Positions 22,487-39,092 of a DNA stretch of 64,000 nucleotides are shown one piece after another (positions within the stretch are counted from its first letter, which is position 1; each line of letters starts with the position of its first letter). A model generated the notes under the pieces. It was not told the DNA's origin and ran no database searches. It worked only from the letters and a program-made list of their open reading frames with translations. The stretch covers positions 4,801 through 68,800 of IMG/VR virus record IMGVR_UViG_3300042691_049879. One strand, written 5' to 3'. The DNA is from a virus. The position numbers and the translations under genes were made by a program.

Positions 22487-22894
22487 TTATGCTAAAACTT
22501 CTTCAGCCACTTTTCTTACCTCAGAATTATCTGCTTTTCCCTGAAACTTTTTATTGAACGCTCCCATAATCATTCCAATATTATTAGCGCCATCATTAAC
22601 AATAATTTCAACTTCTTTTCTCACTTCTTCTGTTGTCATTAATTTAGGCAAATAATCATTTAGTATATTAAGTTGAAATTCAGATTCAACGTCTCCAGAC
22701 TTAATTGATTCTTTAAGAGATTTTTCAACTTTCTTTAAAATGCTCATAACATTTTCGTCAGTTGATTCAACTCCTCTTCCTTCAGCATTTTGAATTTCAC
22801 CTTTAATAACTCCAAGAAAATTCTTTTTTTCCATTTCTTTGCTCTTAAAGGCTGTCATAAAATCTTGATTGATTTTTTCTTTTAAAGTTGTCAT
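22487..22894 (-). CDS. GatB/YqeY domain protein
   Basis: LKEKINQDFMTAFKSK...YLPKLMT.EE...MGAFNKKFQGKAD. Confidence 0.85.
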   Translation of the reverse strand: MTTLKEKINQDFMTAFKSKEMEKKNFLGVIKGEIQNAEGRGVESTDENVMSILKKVEKSLKESIKSGDVESEFQLNILNDYLPKLMTTEEVRKEVEIIVNDGANNIGMIMGAFNKKFQGKADNSEVRKVAEEVLA

Positions 22895-22966
22895 AATATT
22901 TTTTTACTAATTAATTTTTATAATACAAATTTAAACATAAAATTGCAGAACAAAAAATTTTAATTG

Positions 22967-23038
22967 AGACAGCGAAGAGAATCGAACTCTTCTAAATGGG
23001 TTTGCAATCCATCACCTCTGCCGCTCGGTCACGCTGTC
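22967..23038 (-). tRNA. tRNA-Cys(GCA)
   Basis: Cloverleaf; loop UUGCAAA; U73. Confidence 0.9.
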
Positions 23039-23043
23039 ATTAT

Positions 23044-23121
23044 TGGAGCCTTATGAGGGACTCAAACCCCCGACCTGCTGAGTACAAATCAGCTGCTCTA
23101 AGTCAACTGAGCTAATAAGGC
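23044..23121 (-). tRNA. tRNA-Thr(UGU), CCA encoded
   Basis: GCUGA-UUUGUAC-UCAGC. Confidence 0.9.
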
Positions 23122-23131
23122 ATTATATATG

Positions 23132-23205
23132 TACTCCCAGAAAGATTCAAACTTTCAACCTCCGAATCCGTAGTTCGGCACTCTATTCAATTGAGCTATA
23201 GGAGC
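23132..23205 (-). tRNA. tRNA-Arg(ACG)
   Basis: CCGAA-CUACGGA-UUCGG. Confidence 0.9.
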
Positions 23206-23213
23206 ATTTATTG

Positions 23214-23287
23214 TACGCCTAAGTGGAATTGAACCACTGACCTCTTGATTATCAGTCAAGTGCTCTAACCAACTGAGCTATAGGCGT
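23214..23287 (-). tRNA. tRNA-Ile(GAU)
   Basis: CUUGA-CUGAUAA-UCAAG. Confidence 0.92.
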
Positions 23288-23293
23288 ATGTTG

Positions 23294-23366
23294 CGCACCA
23301 GGCAAGATTCGAACTCGCAACTACTAGTTTTGGAGGCTAGTACCCATACCATAGGGTCTCTGATGC
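23294..23366 (-). tRNA. tRNA-Trp(CCA)
   Basis: Loop CUCCAAA, G73, T-arm GUUCGAAUC. Confidence 0.85.
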
Positions 23367-23450
23367 ATTTTGTAGCTCAAACAAACATTTAATTAAGCTC
23401 AACTTAAAATATTAATGAGCTTTAAATATTACTTTTTGAGCTGTATTTTG

Positions 23451-23523
23451 AGCAAGAGATGGGGTTCAAACCCACGGCCTTCTGAGTGGAAGTCAGATGC
23501 TCTATCAACTGAGCTACTCTTGC
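23451..23523 (-). tRNA. tRNA-Gly(UCC)
   Basis: UCUGA-CUUCCAC-UCAGA, U73. Confidence 0.9.
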
Positions 23524-23531
23524 ATATGTTG

Positions 23532-23609
23532 TGGGGATAGAAGGACTCGAACCTCCGTGTGGTATGCTTGATTTACAGTCAAGTGCAGTCGCCGCTGTGC
23601 CATATCCCC
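23532..23609 (-). tRNA. tRNA-Tyr(GUA)
   Basis: CUUGA-CUGUAAA-UCAAG. Confidence 0.9.
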
Positions 23610-23666
23610 ATTTTCCGATTTTCTTTAATTTTCAGTTTGCGGTATCGGACTACCATTTCTGCTACG

Positions 23667-23792
23667 TGGACGGAGCTAGATTCGAACTAACATTAACCAT
23701 TTAGGTGTTTAGTGTACTGCTAAACTTGCTTGCCGACAATCGAGGTTTGGAATAGGCGATAATCCAAACTGACATGCCATTGCCATCCGTCC
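23667..23792 (-). ncRNA. Oversized tRNA-like RNA (126 nt) with extra arms
   Basis: Acceptor GGACGGA/UCCGUCC-A, T-arm GUUAG-UUCGAAU-CUAGC, D-like arm, three internal hairpins, no canonical anticodon loop. Confidence 0.65.
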
Positions 23793-23795
23793 TTA

Positions 23796-23872
23796 TGGTG
23801 GAGCTGGGCGGGCTCAAACCGCCGACCCCTGCAGTGCAAGTGCAGTGCTCTAGTCAACTGAGCTACAACCCC
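23796..23872 (-). tRNA. tRNA-Ala(UGC), CCA encoded
   Basis: G3-U70 pair; loop CUUGCAC. Confidence 0.92.
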
Positions 23873-23885
23873 ATAATAATTAAAA

Positions 23886-24804
23886 GCTTGAGACTACAGC
23901 TTTTGCAACAATACTTTCATCCTTACATTCCTTTAAGTGCTACCTTATTGGTTTGAGATTTATCCACAGTGTCCCTTTCAGGTATCTGTATATTGTCATC
24001 GCTGCCTTTTTTGAAGAGTGGCATTTCTCTTATCAATACTAACTACTCGACATTTCGAATCATCACCTGTCTTGCGGACATTAATTACGCTTTTAACGCT
24101 TATTAGAAAATCTTCTACTTTATCAAACGACTTTCCCTTGCGAGGTCCATCGCTCCTGTTATCTTAAAGACCAGGAATTAAGCGACTTTTCGTTTAGTAT
24201 TTGTTCCAGACTTTTGCTTTTAATTTGCTTGATGAAGGAGTTGAACCTTCGACCTATTGTTTAAGAGACAATCACTCTACCAACTGAGTTAATCTAGCTT
24301 TTTTACCTACTAAGTTGTGCTGGAACCATTGCTTCATTCTCTTTTGAAGAACAAAATACAACACAACTCTATGCGTTTCGGCTTGCGGCCTACTGTACAG
24401 AAATTAACTTTAATTTTCATCAAAGCTTATTCAAGATTACTACGACAACTTTAACATCATCGCCTCACCTCTCATTCTGGAGTCTAGCCCTTGATTTGCG
24501 GTCTCGAACAGTACTCCTACACCTTATCCATACTCTAGACTACGTGACTTGGATATGATAGATAACGCATCCCTGCATCTATTTGTGTCCAGCATCGCCT
24601 AACACTTATCCTTTCCAAAGGACTATCTAATCACTTACGCCTTTCACTCCGCTTGGTTACGAAGTCTGCTGTTGGCAGCAGGGGACGGTGCTTGCTTGAA
24701 TTGACCATAAAATGGCGGGTAGTTGTAGGCAACTTTCCCCTTCACATCATTGCTGATGTTTATCTTTCTTCGTGACGCCATAAGACATCACAACCTTCTC
24801 AAGC
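23886..24804 (-). ncRNA. Large ornate ncRNA, GOLLD-like (~920 nt)
   Basis: ORF-free and GC-elevated; 5' GCUUGAGA pairs with 3' UCUCAAGC; several GCAA tetraloop hairpins on the minus strand; lies in a tRNA operon and contains a tRNA. Confidence 0.65.
24226..24298 (-). tRNA. tRNA-Lys(CUU) embedded in the large ncRNA
   Basis: AUUGU-CUCUUAA-ACAAU; one acceptor mismatch. Confidence 0.85.
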
Positions 24805-24844
24805 AAAGGTAATTTTTTTAATATTTCAAAGAACTTATTTTCAG

Positions 24845-24920
24845 TAGGGTAGACAGGGCTCGAACCTGCAGTAATGTCCTCATCCCAAATGAGGCGACTT
24901 GCCAATTAGTCTACTACCCT
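24845..24920 (-). tRNA. tRNA-Pro(UGG)
   Basis: CCUCA-UUUGGGA-UGAGG. Confidence 0.88.
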
Positions 24921-24966
24921 ATTTTTCAAATTATGAAAGCTCGTTTGCTTCCTAAAGTTTTGACAC

Positions 24967-25064
24967 AAAAAAACCCGAATCTTTTTTATGGATTCGGGTG
25001 TGTTCTAGTTTGATATATATTTGTTTAACTTAACTAATCAATACTATTGTGAATTAACACACCC
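24967..25064 (-). promoter_or_regulatory. Attenuator 1 (terminator plus antiterminator) before tRNA operon 1
   Basis: Terminator CCCGAAUC/GAUUCGGG-U7 (24967-24998); GGGUGUGUU (25056-25064) can pair with AACACACCC (24996-25004). Confidence 0.8.
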
Positions 25065-25141
25065 ATACCATCCCAACGATACGCGGGACAAATCCCCGTC
25101 GCTGTCGGTCTAATATTCTTATATGTGTTAATTGTTTTCAT
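25034..25141 (-). CDS. Leader peptide 1 (MKTINTYKNIRPTATGICPAYRWDGMGVLIHNSID)
   Basis: 35-aa ORF between the TACATTTG promoter (25197-25204) and the terminator; codons match downstream tRNAs. Confidence 0.8.
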   Translation of the reverse strand: MKTINTYKNIRPTATGICPAYRWDGMGVLIHNSID

Positions 25142-25344
25142 TTTGTTTTTAGTTTAAATATAATTAAAAAATCTTTTTTCTAATTTTGTAACGTTGCAAA
25201 TGTAAGAAAATTACACAAAAAACAAAACATTTTTTTAATTTTTTTTTCACTTTTTTTATAAAGTGCTGATAATCAATAAGATATTTTTTAAAATTTTTTT
25301 TTTATTTTTCATAAAAAATATTAAAATAAAATATATTTATTTTT

Positions 25345-25773
25345 ATGAATAAGCAAGAGTTAAGAAAATTAATAAGAGAATCTTTTGGAAATGATTCTCA
25401 AATATATGTTACTGAAGGAATAGAAGTTGATGCATATTTAAGTTCTACAATTAATCCAGATGACTACTATACTAACAAAAGTAAAGCTACAATATATTGG
25501 ATTATTGATATGGAAAATAAAAGTTTTGGTATAAAAGAATTCTTTCCAGTAATAAAAAAAATAGATTTAAATTTAGAAATTTGGAGAGAAGAAAATCAAG
25601 AATACGAAACAATAAAAAAAGTATTTGATAATATAAGTGCAGCAGACGGAGGTACAATAGAAGATTTTAAGTTGACAATCACAAAAACATGTGATAGAGG
25701 TCATATTTATCCTACTGATTTATTGATGGATGAAGGAAATAAAACAATAGAAATAAGTTTTGATATGCCATAA
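25345..25773 (+). CDS. Hypothetical protein with ELRKLIRES tag
   Basis: TATTTAT at 25334. Confidence 0.65.
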   Translation: MNKQELRKLIRESFGNDSQIYVTEGIEVDAYLSSTINPDDYYTNKSKATIYWIIDMENKSFGIKEFFPVIKKIDLNLEIWREENQEYETIKKVFDNISAADGGTIEDFKLTITKTCDRGHIYPTDLLMDEGNKTIEISFDMP

Positions 25774-33239: not shown

Positions 33240-33281
33240 GTAAGTTTTTTATTTTAAATTCAAAGAACGTTTTCTTTTTTG

Positions 33282-34302: not shown

Positions 34303-34317
34303 ATTATTCAAAGAACT

Positions 34318-34839: not shown

Positions 34840-34925
34840 AAAAAAAAACCCGAACTTTTTCGGTTCGGGTGTCTTATTTCTTTTCAGTTATATTATTAAC
34901 TTTTAAAAGTTGCTAAAGCACACCC
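34840..34925 (-). promoter_or_regulatory. Attenuator 2 before tRNA operon 2
   Basis: Terminator CCCGAAC/GUUCGGG-U9 (34840-34869); GGGUGU(G)CUU can pair with AAGACACCC. Confidence 0.75.
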
Positions 34926-35025
34926 TTATAAACCCTGATTTGTTATCATCATGATTCTTCTTTACATTCCCACTCATTTTCGAAGTGGAAACCAAAGTTG
35001 CGATATGTGTACTTGTAAGTTGCAA
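34903..35025 (-). CDS. Leader peptide 2 (MQLTSTHIATLVSTSKMSGNVKKNHDDNKSGFIRVCFSNF; TTG start, or ATG at 34977)
   Basis: ORF between the TACATTTG promoter (35080-35087) and the terminator; S/K/M/G/N/H/D-rich core. Confidence 0.72.
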   Translation of the reverse strand: MQLTSTHIATLVSTSKMSGNVKKNHDDNKSGFIRVCFSNF

Positions 35026-35257
35026 AATTTTATTTTTTATAATTGTTAATAAATATATCTGTTTTTTTAAAACCCGATACAAATGTAAAACTTTTTTTTT
35101 AATTTACAATAATTATAACGACTTTTTTTTAAAAAAATTACAAAAAAAATTAAAAAAAAACTATAAGTTATTGATTTACAGTATTTTATAATAATTATTT
35201 TTTTTGTATAAATTCATAATTTAAAAGCATTTAAAAAAAAAGTTAATATTTATTATT

Positions 35258-36636: not shown

Positions 36637-36731
36637 ATTTTAATCTTTCAAAGAACTTTCATTGTTTATTGTAACGACAAATGTAAAACTTTATTACAAT
36701 AAAACAAAAAAAAATTAATTTTTTATTTTTG

Positions 36732-36803: not shown

Positions 36804-36839
36804 ATTGTTTCTTTCACAAAAATAGTCAATAATTGTGAC

Positions 36840-36913
36840 AAAAAAAAAGGTCTAGACAATTCTGCCCAGACCCTTTAGTGTTTTAATTATTAAAATTTAC
36901 ACAATATCTAGGC
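36840..36913 (-). promoter_or_regulatory. Attenuator 3 before tRNA operon 3
   Basis: Terminator GGUCUGGGC/GUCUAGACC-U9 (36840-36872); GCCUAGAU (36906-36913) can pair with GUCUGGGC. Confidence 0.8.
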
Positions 36914-36971
36914 TTGAACAAGAATTTCTTCTTATCCTTTTAGCTATTGATATTGAGTTAATTTTTTTCAT
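36897..36971 (-). CDS. Leader peptide 3 (MKKINSISIAKRIRRNSCSSLDIV)
   Basis: Codons ATA TCA ATA GCT AAA AGG ATA AGA AGA directly upstream of tRNA-Ile(UAU), Arg(UCU) and Ile2. Confidence 0.8.
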   Translation of the reverse strand: MKKINSISIAKRIRRNSCSSLDIV

Positions 36972-37196: not shown

Positions 37197-39092
37197 TTAA
37201 TCATATAAAGTCTTTAATAAATCGCTAAAAATACTTTCATCTTTAACTTCAACTTTTTGCTCAAATTCAGTTCCATCAAGCACTTTAGATAAAATTGAAG
37301 ATTTGTGATTTAACATTCTATCTATATCTTCATCTATTGTATCTTGACAAATAAGTCTTATAATTTGCACCTTATCCGCCTTTGATGAAGCTCTATGTAT
37401 TCTATCTTCTGCTTGTTCTCTATCTGCACTTGTCCATGGTTGGTCAATAAATATAGATATACTTGCAGAAGTTAAAGTAATTCCTACACCAGCCGCTCCT
37501 ATAGTTCCAGAGAATACTTTAGTTTTTTCATCATTCATAAACTTTTCAACAGCTTCGTCTTTTTTGTTTGAATTAATATCTCCATTAAAAACTACAGCAG
37601 CATCACCAAATCTTTCTGCAACTTTATAAGATATATCTTTATATTGTGTGAATACAACAACTTTTTCATCTCCATCTATAATATCTTGTATAAAATCAAA
37701 AGCTCTTTTCATTTTTATTTCAGACGTAAAATGTTTTAACTTTTGAATTCTGGTTAAATGATTCATTCTATTATCTTCACCTGGTTTATCGGATTGATGT
37801 TCTTCTTTTATTCCTTTCTTTATTTTATTATATTCCCTTAATTCTATTTCATTTAATTCTATTGGAATTGCTGTATATGTTTTTTCTGGGAGATGTTTTA
37901 AAATATCCTTTTTAAGTCTTCTTAAGAAATAAGGAGAAATTTTTTCAAACAACTCTTCCAGATTAGAAGCACCATTATAATCCCATCCAAAATTATTTTT
38001 TTCAGCCGCACAATACTTTACACCAAAAGCGTGTGAATTTGACCATTCCTCTGGATATAAGAAGTTTAATAAAGAGAAAAACTCGTATGGTCTACTTTTT
38101 ATCGCTGTACCAGTAAGTAAAATTCTATGTGGTATATCTTTAAAATTTTTCTTTACCAACTTAGTCCTATCTGCAGAATCATTTTTTATATAATGAGCTT
38201 CATCCATTATTAAAATTTCATAATCTTTTGGATTTATTGTTATTCCTTCAGAGTCATTTGTAAAGGTTATATTTTTTGTTGCCCTTGAAGTTACCATATT
38301 TCTAACTCCACATTTAGGACAAGTCTTATCTTTGTATCTTTTTTTATCATTCCTTTCTTTCCAGCCACAAAAGACATTCTTACATGTGTGTGACATTTCA
38401 ATCGTTATATATGAGCCTAAAGAATCATATCCTATTATATCAAACAAACTTTCTTCTTTAATATAATTTATTTTACCAGACTTTTTTGTTGGTTTCCATT
38501 TATAGACAAAAGCTTTTTCATGTGTAAATTTTAAAATTTCACTTCTCCAATTAAGCCTTAAGTTTGCTGGACAGATTATTAACGTTTTCTTTTTTTTCCA
38601 AGCCGCATATGTCATTGCAGAATTTGTTTTTCCTACTCCTGGCTGGTCTCCAAGTAAGGCTCTACCATTACAAGTGTCAAAAAAAACTGCAGCCTGTTTT
38701 TGATATTCATATGGTTCTATTTTCATGAAGGAAAAATCAATACCAGAAACATCTATATTTTCAGACTTCATAGATAAAGATTTCATTAAAGATTCTTGTC
38801 TTTTTATGAACTTCATCCTTAATTCCTCAACTTCTTCATTTGTTAAGTTTGTGAACTTAAAAGGTATACCATTATCCTTAATAAAGCCTATTACTTTACC
38901 TATATAGCCTTCGGAAACTACTCTATACCAACTTTCATAACCACTTCCATCAGGTCTTTGCATAAAGTCCATCTTTATTTGTCTTTGGTCTTCTGGGAAG
39001 GATTTTATAAAATCGCTTAGACTTTTCCTGTAATTATACTCTAATTTGTAATTTGACTTTAACTTCGTTATTATAACCTTATTATCATCCAT
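37197..39092 (-). CDS. SNF2-family (HARP/SMARCAL1-like) helicase with Zn-ribbon insertion
   Basis: DQPGVGKT, DEAH, LTGT, GVGITLT, QAEDRIHR; CKNVFC...CPKC insertion. Confidence 0.9.
   Translation of the reverse strand: MDDNKVIITKLKSNYKLEYNYRKSLSDFIKSFPEDQRQIKMDFMQRPDGSGYESWYRVVSEGYIGKVIGFIKDNGIPFKFTNLTNEEVEELRMKFIKRQESLMKSLSMKSENIDVSGIDFSFMKIEPYEYQKQAAVFFDTCNGRALLGDQPGVGKTNSAMTYAAWKKKKTLIICPANLRLNWRSEILKFTHEKAFVYKWKPTKKSGKINYIKEESLFDIIGYDSLGSYITIEMSHTCKNVFCGWKERNDKKRYKDKTCPKCGVRNMVTSRATKNITFTNDSEGITINPKDYEILIMDEAHYIKNDSADRTKLVKKNFKDIPHRILLTGTAIKSRPYEFFSLLNFLYPEEWSNSHAFGVKYCAAEKNNFGWDYNGASNLEELFEKISPYFLRRLKKDILKHLPEKTYTAIPIELNEIELREYNKIKKGIKEEHQSDKPGEDNRMNHLTRIQKLKHFTSEIKMKRAFDFIQDIIDGDEKVVVFTQYKDISYKVAERFGDAAVVFNGDINSNKKDEAVEKFMNDEKTKVFSGTIGAAGVGITLTSASISIFIDQPWTSADREQAEDRIHRASSKADKVQIIRLICQDTIDEDIDRMLNHKSSILSKVLDGTEFEQKVEVKDESIFSDLLKTLYD

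What the first reader, a model, noticed from the sequence alone, without database searches (positions are those of the whole stretch)
24967..25204. Attenuator 1: one leader samples all ten tRNAs of its operon
Seen: promoter TACATTTG (25197-25204), then ATG AAA ACA ATT AAC ACA TAT AAG AAT ATT AGA CCG ACA GCG ACG GGG ATT TGT CCC GCG TAT CGT TGG GAT GGT ATG GGT GTG TTA... The GC-rich codons are out of character for this AT-rich genome. There is a readable codon for every downstream tRNA: AAG (Lys-CUU), ATT (Ile-GAU), CCG (Pro-UGG), ACA/ACG (Thr-UGU), GCG (Ala-UGC), GGG (Gly-UCC), TGT (Cys), TAT (Tyr), CGT (Arg-ACG), TGG (Trp). GGGUGUGUU just downstream can form 9 bp with AACACACCC, which overlaps the base of the terminator stem. 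Inference: a multivalent OR-gate sensor that also gates the GOLLD-like RNA.
Basis: partly seen in the sequence, partly recalled or inferred. Interest (0 to 1): 0.9.

Follow-up and report, generated by a model that had tools for sequence, protein, structure and literature searches.

The report
Codon-matched attenuator gating phage tRNAs
A giant phage of Bacteroidota places a tiny "test" gene, written in the codons read by the ten tRNA genes behind it, in front of a switchable transcription stop, so it probably makes those tRNAs only when ribosomes read these codons slowly.

Summary
On the minus strand lie a Bacteroidota-type promoter (25226-25197), a 35-codon ORF (25141-25034), a 9-bp complement pair (25064-25056 with 25004-24996) and an intrinsic terminator (24999-24967), 46 nt before tRNA-Pro and nine more tRNAs. 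All 10 of 10 anticodon classes have a cognate codon in the ORF (P=4e-5 under phage codon usage, 0.004 under the ORF's own base composition).

Related phages carry five leader families. In 15 of 15 leaders in five genomes, enrichment is highest for the leader's own array. A permutation test over 14 non-redundant pairs was reached by 0 of 200,000 shuffles. The ORF frame beats both other frames in 17 of 17 leaders.

Best reading: a trp-type, multivalent leader-peptide attenuator controlling tRNA genes. This is inferred, with no experiment.

Weak points:
- The 1:2 pairing is no stronger than in shuffles.
- The Trp and Cys codons sit badly in a simple stall model.
- A candidate promoter at 24811-24804 may let GOLLD escape the gate.

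I found no published account. This scan has already reported the same kind of system on other genomes.

The parts
25197..25226 (-). Promoter of Bacteroidota type: TTTG, 18-nt spacer, then the -7 box TACATTTG (25204-25197).
   Evidence: Sequence; pattern match. The full pattern is not enriched in the window (9 found, 5.8 expected). The same TTACATTTG box heads the two other tRNA units. The consensus itself is recalled, not tested.
25034..25141 (-). Leader ORF of 35 codons plus TAG. The sensor codons lie between region 1 and region 2.
   Evidence: ORF. Searches give 19 of 34 cognate codons, and 17 of 24 before region 2 (p=2.6e-7). Homologues are in L016 and L100.
25121..25131 (-). Region 1 (UUAACACAUAU, codons 4-7). 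It pairs with region 2 in the minimum-energy fold and would act as the anti-antiterminator.
   Evidence: Its position is conserved (nt ~12-27 of the ORF) in 11 of 12 elements of families A-C. Its duplex energy is no better than shuffles.
25073..25108 (-). G+C-rich inner hairpin inside the ORF, possibly a pause or timing hairpin.
   Evidence: Fold. One compensatory G-C to A-U change against the L016 homologue, both at third codon positions and synonymous.
25056..25064 (-). Region 2 (GGGUGUGUU). It can pair with region 1 or with region 3.
   Evidence: The heptamer is present in all elements of families A, B and C, including those found by synteny or BLAST rather than by pattern.
25034..25036 (-). 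Stop codon, placed between regions 2 and 3, with the ORF ending 31 nt after the start of region 2.
   Evidence: the ORF ends 23-34 nt after the start of region 2 in 12 of 12 elements of families A-C.
24996..25004 (-). Region 3 (AACACACCC). Its last 4 nt are the base of the terminator's 5' arm.
   Evidence: 2:3 hairpin at -16.0 kcal/mol.
24967..24999 (-). Intrinsic terminator: 9-bp stem, 9-nt loop and U7.
   Evidence: -12.7 kcal/mol. Not listed by the scan, whose loop limit is 8 nt.
24844..24920 (-). tRNA-Pro(UGG), the first gene behind the terminator (46-nt gap).
24804..24811 (-). Candidate internal -7 box (TACCTTTG), just before the GOLLD RNA.
   Evidence: RNA contig ends at 24795 and 24794 in two of four runs. 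Inference only.
23894..24818 (-). GOLLD-like RNA of about 0.9 kb with tRNA-Lys(CUU) inside it (24298-24226).
   Evidence: Rfam RF02032 gives 144.8 bits (gathering score 150), E=7.7e-40, over 24369-23885. Four metatranscriptome runs hold identical contigs of 863-905 nt.
22966..23872 (-). Eight further tRNA genes: Ala, Tyr, Gly(UCC), Trp, Ile(GAU), Arg(ACG), Thr(UGU) and Cys.

Best explanation
This is a ribosome-mediated (leader-peptide) transcription attenuator that controls a phage tRNA array. Transcription starts at the promoter at 25226-25197. A ribosome translates the 35-codon leader while RNA polymerase moves on. If decoding is smooth, the ribosome reaches the stop codon between regions 2 and 3. 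Region 2 is then covered, or re-pairs with region 1 behind the ribosome; region 3 stays free; the terminator forms; and transcription stops 46 nt before tRNA-Pro. If the ribosome stalls at one of the sensor codons between regions 1 and 2, because a tRNA that the array encodes is scarce or uncharged, region 1 is blocked. Region 2 then pairs with region 3, the base of the terminator is taken away, and polymerase reads into the tRNA genes. The outcome would be negative feedback on the supply of exactly those tRNAs. Shown in silico: the parts, their conservation, the codon matching and the competing folds. Inferred: translation of the ORF, coupling to transcription, stalling, and the physiological signal.
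For: (1) Anatomy: promoter, ORF, three mutually exclusive helices and a terminator. Without a ribosome, the equilibrium terminator probability is 0.99. With a ribosome at codons 2-22, the antiterminator probability is 0.05-0.95, and at least 0.4 at 18 of those 21 positions. From codon 23 onward the terminator is at 0.98-1.00.
(2) Codon matching of this leader: 10 of 10 anticodon classes and 19 of 34 codons, against a background of 0.21 (p=1e-5).
(3) Relatives: helicase synteny gave 25 loci. A pattern for the switch gave 11 stretches in viral contigs, 8 in genome contigs and 23 in metagenome contigs. Every element with enough downstream DNA has tRNA genes behind it: 10 of 10, 7 of 8 (the eighth had about 220 nt downstream) and 15 of the 16 examined (the sixteenth had 141 nt).
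(4) Five leader families with unrelated peptides each match their own array: 15 of 15 leaders in five genomes have their highest observed/expected ratio on their own array. The permutation test over 14 non-redundant pairs gave 0.467 matched against 0.327, reached by 0 of 200,000 shuffles.
(5) Frame: cognate codons are most frequent in the ORF frame in 17 of 17 leaders. The distance from ATG to region 2 in family A is 77, 77, 101, 104, 107 and 113 nt, so all differences are multiples of three.
(6) Peptide sequence is not conserved (non-synonymous changes outnumber synonymous ones in every pair), but composition is. This fits a leader, not a working peptide.
(7) In several elements the first tRNA starts only 15-31 nt after the terminator. 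That leaves no room for a promoter, so these tRNAs can only be made by read-through.
Against: There is no experimental evidence. RNA contigs cover GOLLD but not the leader. The 1:2 duplex is no stronger than with shuffled upstream sequence (fraction of shuffles at least as good: 0.09-0.98), so only its position is conserved. Regions 2 and 3 never vary, so there is no covariation for 2:3, and in the pattern-found elements their presence is by construction. In the footprint model the Cys and Trp codons of this leader do not give antitermination. Leaders keep Trp, Cys or Tyr codons in relatives whose arrays lack those tRNAs, for example G020, G026 and G027. AAG occurs in L100, which has no Lys(ctt) gene. 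Families B, D and E are only weakly significant one at a time (p=0.01-0.1). A candidate internal promoter may uncouple nine of the ten tRNAs. The 17 leaders fall into five families and are not independent.
Confidence: 0.72

Rival explanations
1. The switch is real, but it reports general translation capacity rather than the individual tRNAs. Any slowing of ribosomes would count, such as host shut-off, ribosome-targeting stress or amino-acid starvation. The codon roster would then be a historical or weakly selected feature.
For: Stalls anywhere in codons 2-22 favour the antiterminator in the model. The Anabaena tRNA array is induced by general translational stress (abstract and passages of PMC8421152). 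Leaders keep codons for tRNAs that the array has lost.
Against: Leaders of different arrays in one phage have nearly disjoint compositions that track their own arrays (15 of 15). The permutation test was reached by 0 of 200,000 shuffles. Family E carries a run of five Lys codons before Lys tRNAs. A general sensor would not need this.
Confidence: 0.15
2. The ORF encodes a small working peptide whose transcript ends at an ordinary terminator. The tRNAs would then be made from other promoters or by constitutive leakage.
For: Family A peptides share blocks across distant phages. A -7-type box exists downstream at 24811-24804.
Against: Non-synonymous changes outnumber synonymous ones in every pair; for example A3-A4 has 15 against 3. 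There are no Pfam hits. The composition follows the downstream tRNAs. Gaps of 15-31 nt to the first tRNA leave no room for a promoter. The stop codon keeps a fixed distance from region 2 in families with unrelated peptides.
Confidence: 0.08
3. It is a non-translated RNA switch, riboswitch-like or T-box-like, that senses tRNA or a metabolite directly. The ORF would be incidental.
For: The fold z-score is -3.96. One compensatory change occurs in the inner hairpin. Conserved sequence blocks overlap the ORF.
Against: Rfam gives no T-box, leader or riboswitch match even at E up to 10. The codon match is frame-specific in 17 of 17 leaders. Length changes are all multiples of three. The middle part differs completely between families A, B and C while the switch is kept.
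Confidence: 0.05
4. The match between ORF and tRNAs is a chance by-product of a G+C-rich hairpin read as codons.
For: The G+C-rich stem supplies Pro, Ala, Gly, Arg and Thr codons. Under the ORF's own base composition the cover P rises to 0.004.
Against: The match remains significant under that null. The other two frames of the same stretch score lower. A+T-rich leaders of families C and E match their arrays too. The permutation tests also count against it.
Confidence: 0.02

Closest known systems
Multivalent leader-peptide attenuators of enterobacterial amino-acid operons (thr leader: Thr+Ile; ilvGMEDA leader: Ile, Leu, Val) and the trp attenuator. This comparison is recalled textbook knowledge, not checked in a call.
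   Same: A short translated leader between promoter and terminator, regulatory codons, alternative 1:2 / 2:3 / 3:4 helices, a stop codon placed so that a finishing ribosome favours the terminator, and more than one amino acid sampled.
   Different: The regulated genes are tRNAs (plus a GOLLD RNA), not biosynthetic enzymes. Up to 10-13 codon classes are sampled instead of 1-3, mostly once or twice each rather than in runs; family E, with five Lys codons, is the exception. The ORF runs through region 2. The element is carried by phages and mobile loci of Bacteroidota. It has no Rfam family.
T-box riboswitches (recalled)
   Same: The output depends on the state of a specific tRNA, acts by terminator/antiterminator choice, and serves translation-supply genes.
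   Different: A T-box binds uncharged tRNA directly and needs no translation. Here there is no T-box match, and the signal is frame-specific codon content.
Long tRNA array (trn operon) of Anabaena sp. PCC 7120, silent but induced under translational stress and repressed by TrcR. PMC8421152 and PMC10272220: abstracts in the listing, passages found.
   Same: An accessory tRNA array is kept off and switched on when translation is impaired. I found RtcB and Ro60 genes behind the same switch in Bacteroidota MAGs.
   Different: Control there is by a DNA-binding repressor. The words attenuat-, leader and terminator occur 0 times in PMC8421152, and attenuat-, 'leader peptide' and terminator 0 times in PMC10272220.
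Bacteroid-trp motif (RF01692), a candidate cis-regulatory leader in Bacteroidetes. PMC2864571: table row seen.
   Same: It suggests that cis-regulatory leader elements exist in the host phylum.
   Different: It is a different sequence family; there is no match in the window. It regulates trp genes. Its peptide-leader nature is recalled, not seen in the passage.

Membership tests
Ribosome-mediated (leader-peptide) transcription attenuator | Short ORF with a start codon between the promoter and the regulated genes | tested here: met
   ORF at 25141-25034, 56 nt downstream of the end of the -7 box. ORFs lie in the same place in all 12 elements of families A-C.
Ribosome-mediated (leader-peptide) transcription attenuator | Leader enriched in codons tied to the regulated function | tested here: met
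   19 of 34 cognate codons against 0.21 expected; 10 of 10 classes; 15 of 15 highest on the leader's own array; permutation test reached by 0 of 200,000 shuffles.
Ribosome-mediated (leader-peptide) transcription attenuator | Intrinsic terminator directly before the regulated genes | tested here: met
   9-bp stem plus U7 at 24999-24967, -12.7 kcal/mol. Missed by the scan because of its 9-nt loop.
Ribosome-mediated (leader-peptide) transcription attenuator | Antiterminator (2:3) mutually exclusive with the terminator | tested here: met
   Perfect 9-bp pairing that overlaps 4 nt of the terminator arm; -16.0 kcal/mol here and -14.8 to -23.0 in the 12 elements. There is no covariation because both strands are invariant.
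Ribosome-mediated (leader-peptide) transcription attenuator | Anti-antiterminator (1:2) inside or near the leader ORF | tested here: inconclusive
   It forms in the minimum-energy fold, and its position is conserved in 11 of 12 elements. Its duplex energy is not better than shuffles.
Ribosome-mediated (leader-peptide) transcription attenuator | Stop codon placed so that a finishing ribosome blocks the antiterminator | tested here: met
   The ORF ends 23-34 nt after the start of region 2 and before region 3 in 12 of 12 elements. For elements the ORF was chosen to span region 2, so those do not count as a test.
Ribosome-mediated (leader-peptide) transcription attenuator | Termination depends on translation of the leader | not testable with these tools
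   This needs in vitro or in vivo assays. The RNA contigs gave no cover of the leader.
T-box riboswitch | Specifier loop and T-box sequence (Rfam model) | tested here: not met
   No T-box match at the gathering score or at E up to 10 in 22800-25400.
Rfam leader families (Bacteroid-trp, His/Leu/Thr/Trp leaders) | Match to the covariance model | tested here: not met
   No such match. The only hit on the element is a chance microRNA match at E=2.1.
GOLLD RNA (RF02032), the downstream neighbour | Match to the covariance model at the gathering score | tested here: inconclusive
   144.8 bits against a gathering score of 150, E=7.7e-40, full model length. A discrete RNA of about 0.9 kb is present in four metatranscriptomes.

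The most novel reading that the evidence does not exclude
Giant phages and mobile loci of Bacteroidota carry a portable 'tRNA-pool gauge'. It combines a re-tunable leader ORF, whose codon roster is rewritten to match whichever tRNA genes follow, with a fixed GGGUGUG/ACACCC terminator switch. With it the phage would replace, on demand, exactly those tRNAs that are being lost during infection, whether to host anticodon nucleases or to the phage's own host shut-off. In bacterial contigs the same switch also gates RNA-repair genes (RtcB, Ro60), which would make it a general sensor of tRNA damage.
Probability: 0.35. Interest if true: 0.9.

Novelty: new variant of a known kind. Interest (0 to 1): 0.8.

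Why it matters
Leader-peptide attenuation is a textbook mechanism, but it is known for amino-acid supply. Here the same logic appears to control tRNA genes themselves, with one leader sampling up to ten or more codon classes.

If this is true, three things follow:
- It explains how large phages regulate their tRNA arrays, which is an open point in work on phage tRNAs.
- It gives a direct read-out of which tRNAs the phage expects to become limiting.
- It offers a compact natural sensor of decoding speed for many codons at once.

It is readily testable with reporters. The link to RtcB and Ro60 loci suggests a wider role in the response to tRNA damage.

My searches and the passages read found no published account. 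Supplements were closed, and the motif lists in the supplements of PMC2864571 and PMC5737381 could hold such an element. This scan has already reported the same kind of system on other genomes. This window is therefore a further, well-supported instance, not the first sighting.

Tried and rejected
- An exact 18-mer from the inner hairpin, scanned in viral contigs, gave 5 stretches. All were coding DNA of unrelated G+C-rich phages, i.e. chance hits.
- Neighbouring proteins (the 142-aa ORF and the PAP2 phosphatase) found no relatives in viral contigs.
- blastn of 24200-25400 against GenBank phages found only tRNA-sized matches.
- DNA search of 24 related records gave one homologue in three identical copies, plus short A+T-rich noise.
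- The sigma-70 promoter/terminator scan was uninformative: wrong promoter type, and the terminator loop is over its limit.
- Read laying put nothing on 24844-25167 in the four RNA runs. This is no evidence either way. It cannot show 3' ends, because the runs are kept as contigs.
- The idea that AAG in the leader tracks the Lys(CUU) gene is rejected. L016 lacks both, but L100 has AAG without that gene.
- The idea that 1:2 pairing is statistically special is rejected on energy grounds.
- Seven of the 23 metagenome stretches (L106, L111-L114, L118, L119) were dropped.
- For the permutation test I used 14 leaders, one per family or clade, out of about 35 elements seen. L090, L092, L093, L108 and near-identical copies were left out as redundant or lacking downstream DNA.
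- For family B the conserved TTG start was chosen because it is the ORF start in L016 and L066. With the internal ATG the matching is similar, but region 1 would lie upstream of the ORF.
- Not used: structure prediction, complex prediction, protein homology searches and the protein atlas. No protein question was open.

Full report
**What is there.** The window is part of an uncultured virus record of 68.8 kb, estimated 26% complete. It has about 25-38% G+C, a gp23-like capsid fragment and a phage lysozyme, and 23 tRNA genes, all on the minus strand.

On the minus strand, the region of the finding reads in this order:
- a -7 box TACATTTG (25204-25197), with TTTG upstream at the spacing typical of Bacteroidota promoters (the consensus is recalled);
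- an A-rich untranslated stretch;
- an ATG at 25141 opening a 35-codon ORF that ends at 25034;
- an A+T-rich spacer;
- a terminator hairpin followed by seven U, ending at 24967.

tRNA-Pro starts 46 nt later. It is followed by a GOLLD-like RNA of about 0.9 kb with tRNA-Lys(CUU) inside it (Rfam RF02032: 144.8 bits, gathering score 150, E=7.7e-40), and then by eight more tRNAs. The simple terminator scan missed the hairpin only because its loop has 9 nt; folding finds it.

**The switch.** The minimum-energy fold of the whole leader (z=-3.96 against shuffles) pairs codons 4-7 (25131-25121) with GGGUGUGUU (25064-25056), around a G+C-rich inner hairpin. The terminator is left free to form. GGGUGUGUU is also a perfect 9-nt complement of AACACACCC (25004-24996), whose last four bases form the base of the terminator stem. 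Folded on their own, the 1:2 domain gives -29.8 kcal/mol, the 2:3 hairpin -16.0 and the terminator -12.7. The antiterminator can therefore compete, and it removes the three G-C pairs next to the U-tract.

I also ran a crude equilibrium model in which a ribosome masks everything up to 12 nt past the first base of its A-site codon:
- The naked RNA terminates (P=0.99).
- Stalls at codons 2-22 mostly favour the antiterminator: P is at least 0.4 at 18 of 21 positions, but 0.05-0.18 at codons 10, 17 and 18.
- Stalls from codon 23 onward restore the terminator, because region 2 is then covered.

By this model the Cys codon (18) and the Trp codon (23) of this particular leader would not act. The footprint size is an assumption.

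**Codon matching in this leader.** Under standard wobble, all 10 anticodon classes of the array have a cognate codon in the ORF, and 19 of 34 codons are cognate. The background is 0.21 from the phage's long ORFs (binomial p=1e-5). Before region 2, 17 of 24 codons are cognate (p=2.6e-7).

Simulation gives P=4e-5 for full cover under phage codon usage. Under the ORF's own base composition, which allows for the G+C-rich hairpin, it gives P=0.004. The two other frames of the same stretch cover 7 and 5 classes, with 11 and 9 cognate codons.

**Relatives.** Direct searches with the hairpin, with neighbouring proteins and against GenBank phages failed. The SNF2-type helicase at 37197-39092 found 25 related loci.

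- Three identical records hold a homologue of this leader, 70% identical in DNA. It lies before Ala, Tyr, Gly, Trp, Pro, Ile, Arg, Thr and Cys tRNAs, without GOLLD or Lys(CUU).
- The window itself holds a second element with the same switch before the Ser/Lys/His/Asp/Asn/Gly/Met array. It holds a third, with a different terminator, before tRNA-Ile(UAU) and tRNA-Arg(UCU).
- A pattern built from the switch found 11 stretches in viral contigs, 8 in genome contigs (all MAGs labelled Bacteroidia or Bacteroidota) and 23 in metagenome contigs.
- Wherever enough downstream DNA was held, tRNA genes follow: 10 of 10, 7 of 8, and 15 of the 16 examined. The two misses had only about 220 and 141 nt downstream.
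- In several elements the first tRNA begins 15-31 nt after the terminator. That is too close for a promoter, so those tRNAs can only be made by read-through.

**Five leader families.** I fetched one related phage whole (G020, 213 kb), one fragment whole (G027) and 60 kb of a complete 519-kb phage (G025). This gave five families:
- Family A: this leader and its relatives.
- Family B: the window's second element.
- Family C: before Phe/Ser/Asn/His/Thr arrays.
- Family D: the window's third element.
- Family E: a run of five Lys codons before three to five Lys tRNAs.

Peptides differ completely between families, yet A, B and C share regions 1, 2 and 3 and the terminator.

The matching was tested in four ways:
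- Within each of five genomes, every one of 15 leaders has its highest observed/expected ratio of cognate residues with its own array.
- In family C, 15 of the 19 residues before region 2 belong to the five amino acids of the array (background 0.26, p=1.8e-6).
- Over 14 non-redundant leader/array pairs, including six families from G+C-richer contigs, the matched fraction is 0.467 against 0.327 for permuted pairings, reached by 0 of 200,000 permutations. Within the two composition groups, p=3e-4 and p=0.004.
- In 17 of 17 leaders the ORF frame holds more cognate codons than either other frame.

**Is the ORF translated, and is the peptide the point?** In family A the distance from ATG to region 2 is 77, 77, 101, 104, 107 or 113 nt, always a multiple of three apart. 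In 12 of 12 elements of families A-C the ORF ends 23-34 nt after the start of region 2 and before region 3. Substitutions are not concentrated at third positions, and non-synonymous changes outnumber synonymous ones in every pair. What is kept is the set of amino acids, not their order. That is what a sensor leader predicts. It argues against both a working micropeptide and a purely non-coding RNA. One compensatory, synonymous double change keeps the inner hairpin.

**Weak points.**
- The 1:2 duplex is no stronger than with shuffled upstream sequence. Only its place in the ORF is conserved, in 11 of 12 elements of families A-C.
- Regions 2 and 3 never vary, so there is no covariation. For pattern-found elements their presence is by construction.
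- Leaders keep Trp, Cys or Tyr codons in relatives whose arrays lack those tRNAs.
- AAG does not track the Lys(CUU) gene.
- Families B, D and E are only marginal one at a time.
- A -7-type box at 24811-24804 sits just before GOLLD. In four freshwater metatranscriptome runs, a contig of 863-905 nt identical to 23894/23916-24778/24818 is present, and two of these contigs end at 24795 and 24794. GOLLD is thus probably made as a discrete RNA. It may have its own promoter, so the claim that attenuator 1 gates GOLLD and all ten tRNAs is open.
- The leader itself was not covered by these contigs, which says nothing either way.

**Comparison and novelty.** In working principle this is a trp-type leader-peptide attenuator, closest to the multivalent thr and ilv leaders (recalled). 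It differs in what it controls (tRNA genes and a large non-coding RNA), in how many codon classes it samples, and in its carriers. It is not a T-box and matches no Rfam family.

The nearest published biology I could find is the Anabaena tRNA array, induced by translational stress and controlled by the repressor TrcR. Neither paper mentions attenuation or a terminator; PMC8421152 has no 'leader' at all and PMC10272220 no 'leader peptide'. Full-text searches for leader peptides or attenuators with tRNA arrays or phage tRNAs found nothing relevant. Supplements were closed.

Earlier agents of this scan reported the same kind of system on other genomes. No look-alike of this window's sequence was on file.

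In Bacteroidota MAG contigs the same switch also precedes Ro60/TROVE and RtcB genes, which hints at a link with tRNA damage and repair.

**Verdict.** I put 0.72 on a functional ribosome-mediated attenuator with a codon roster matched to the array. It is a new variant of a known kind of control and of high interest. It rests entirely on sequence analysis.

Noticed in passing
window 23894-24818 (minus strand): Four freshwater metatranscriptome runs each hold one contig of 863-905 nt identical to the whole GOLLD-like RNA with its inner tRNA-Lys(CUU). The RNA seems to exist as a discrete species in nature.
   Followed up: partly
window 24804-24811 (minus strand): A -7-type box (TACCTTTG) lies between tRNA-Pro and GOLLD. 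Two of the four RNA contigs end about 10 nt downstream of it (24795, 24794). It is a possible internal promoter that bypasses attenuator 1.
   Followed up: partly
window 24825-24834, 33259-33268, 34307-34316, 36647-36656 (minus strand): A ten-base motif (GTTCTTTGAA) recurs shortly before tRNA genes or GOLLD, and also in related phages. Its function is unknown; it could be a processing or promoter element.
   Followed up: no
window 34840-35087 and 36838-36971 (minus strand): Two further leader/terminator cassettes lie before the other tRNA units: family B with the same switch, and family D with another terminator. Both are conserved in L016 and match their own arrays.
   Followed up: partly
L089-L096 (Bacteroidota MAG contigs): The same switch module with other leaders lies before tRNA genes and before Ro60/TROVE (L091, L096) and RtcB (L094) genes. 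Whether these contigs are bacterial, prophage or mis-binned phage was not checked.
   Followed up: partly
G020, G025 and G027 (L082, L086, L084): A leader with five consecutive Lys codons (AAA and AAG mixed) and its own terminator lies before three to five Lys tRNA genes. This is the most classical-looking member of the set.
   Followed up: partly
L067 and L105 tRNA arrays: ARAGORN calls a tRNA with a four-base anticodon (aggg) next to tRNA-Pro(agg), a possible quadruplet-reading or defective tRNA.
   Followed up: no
   Followed up: no
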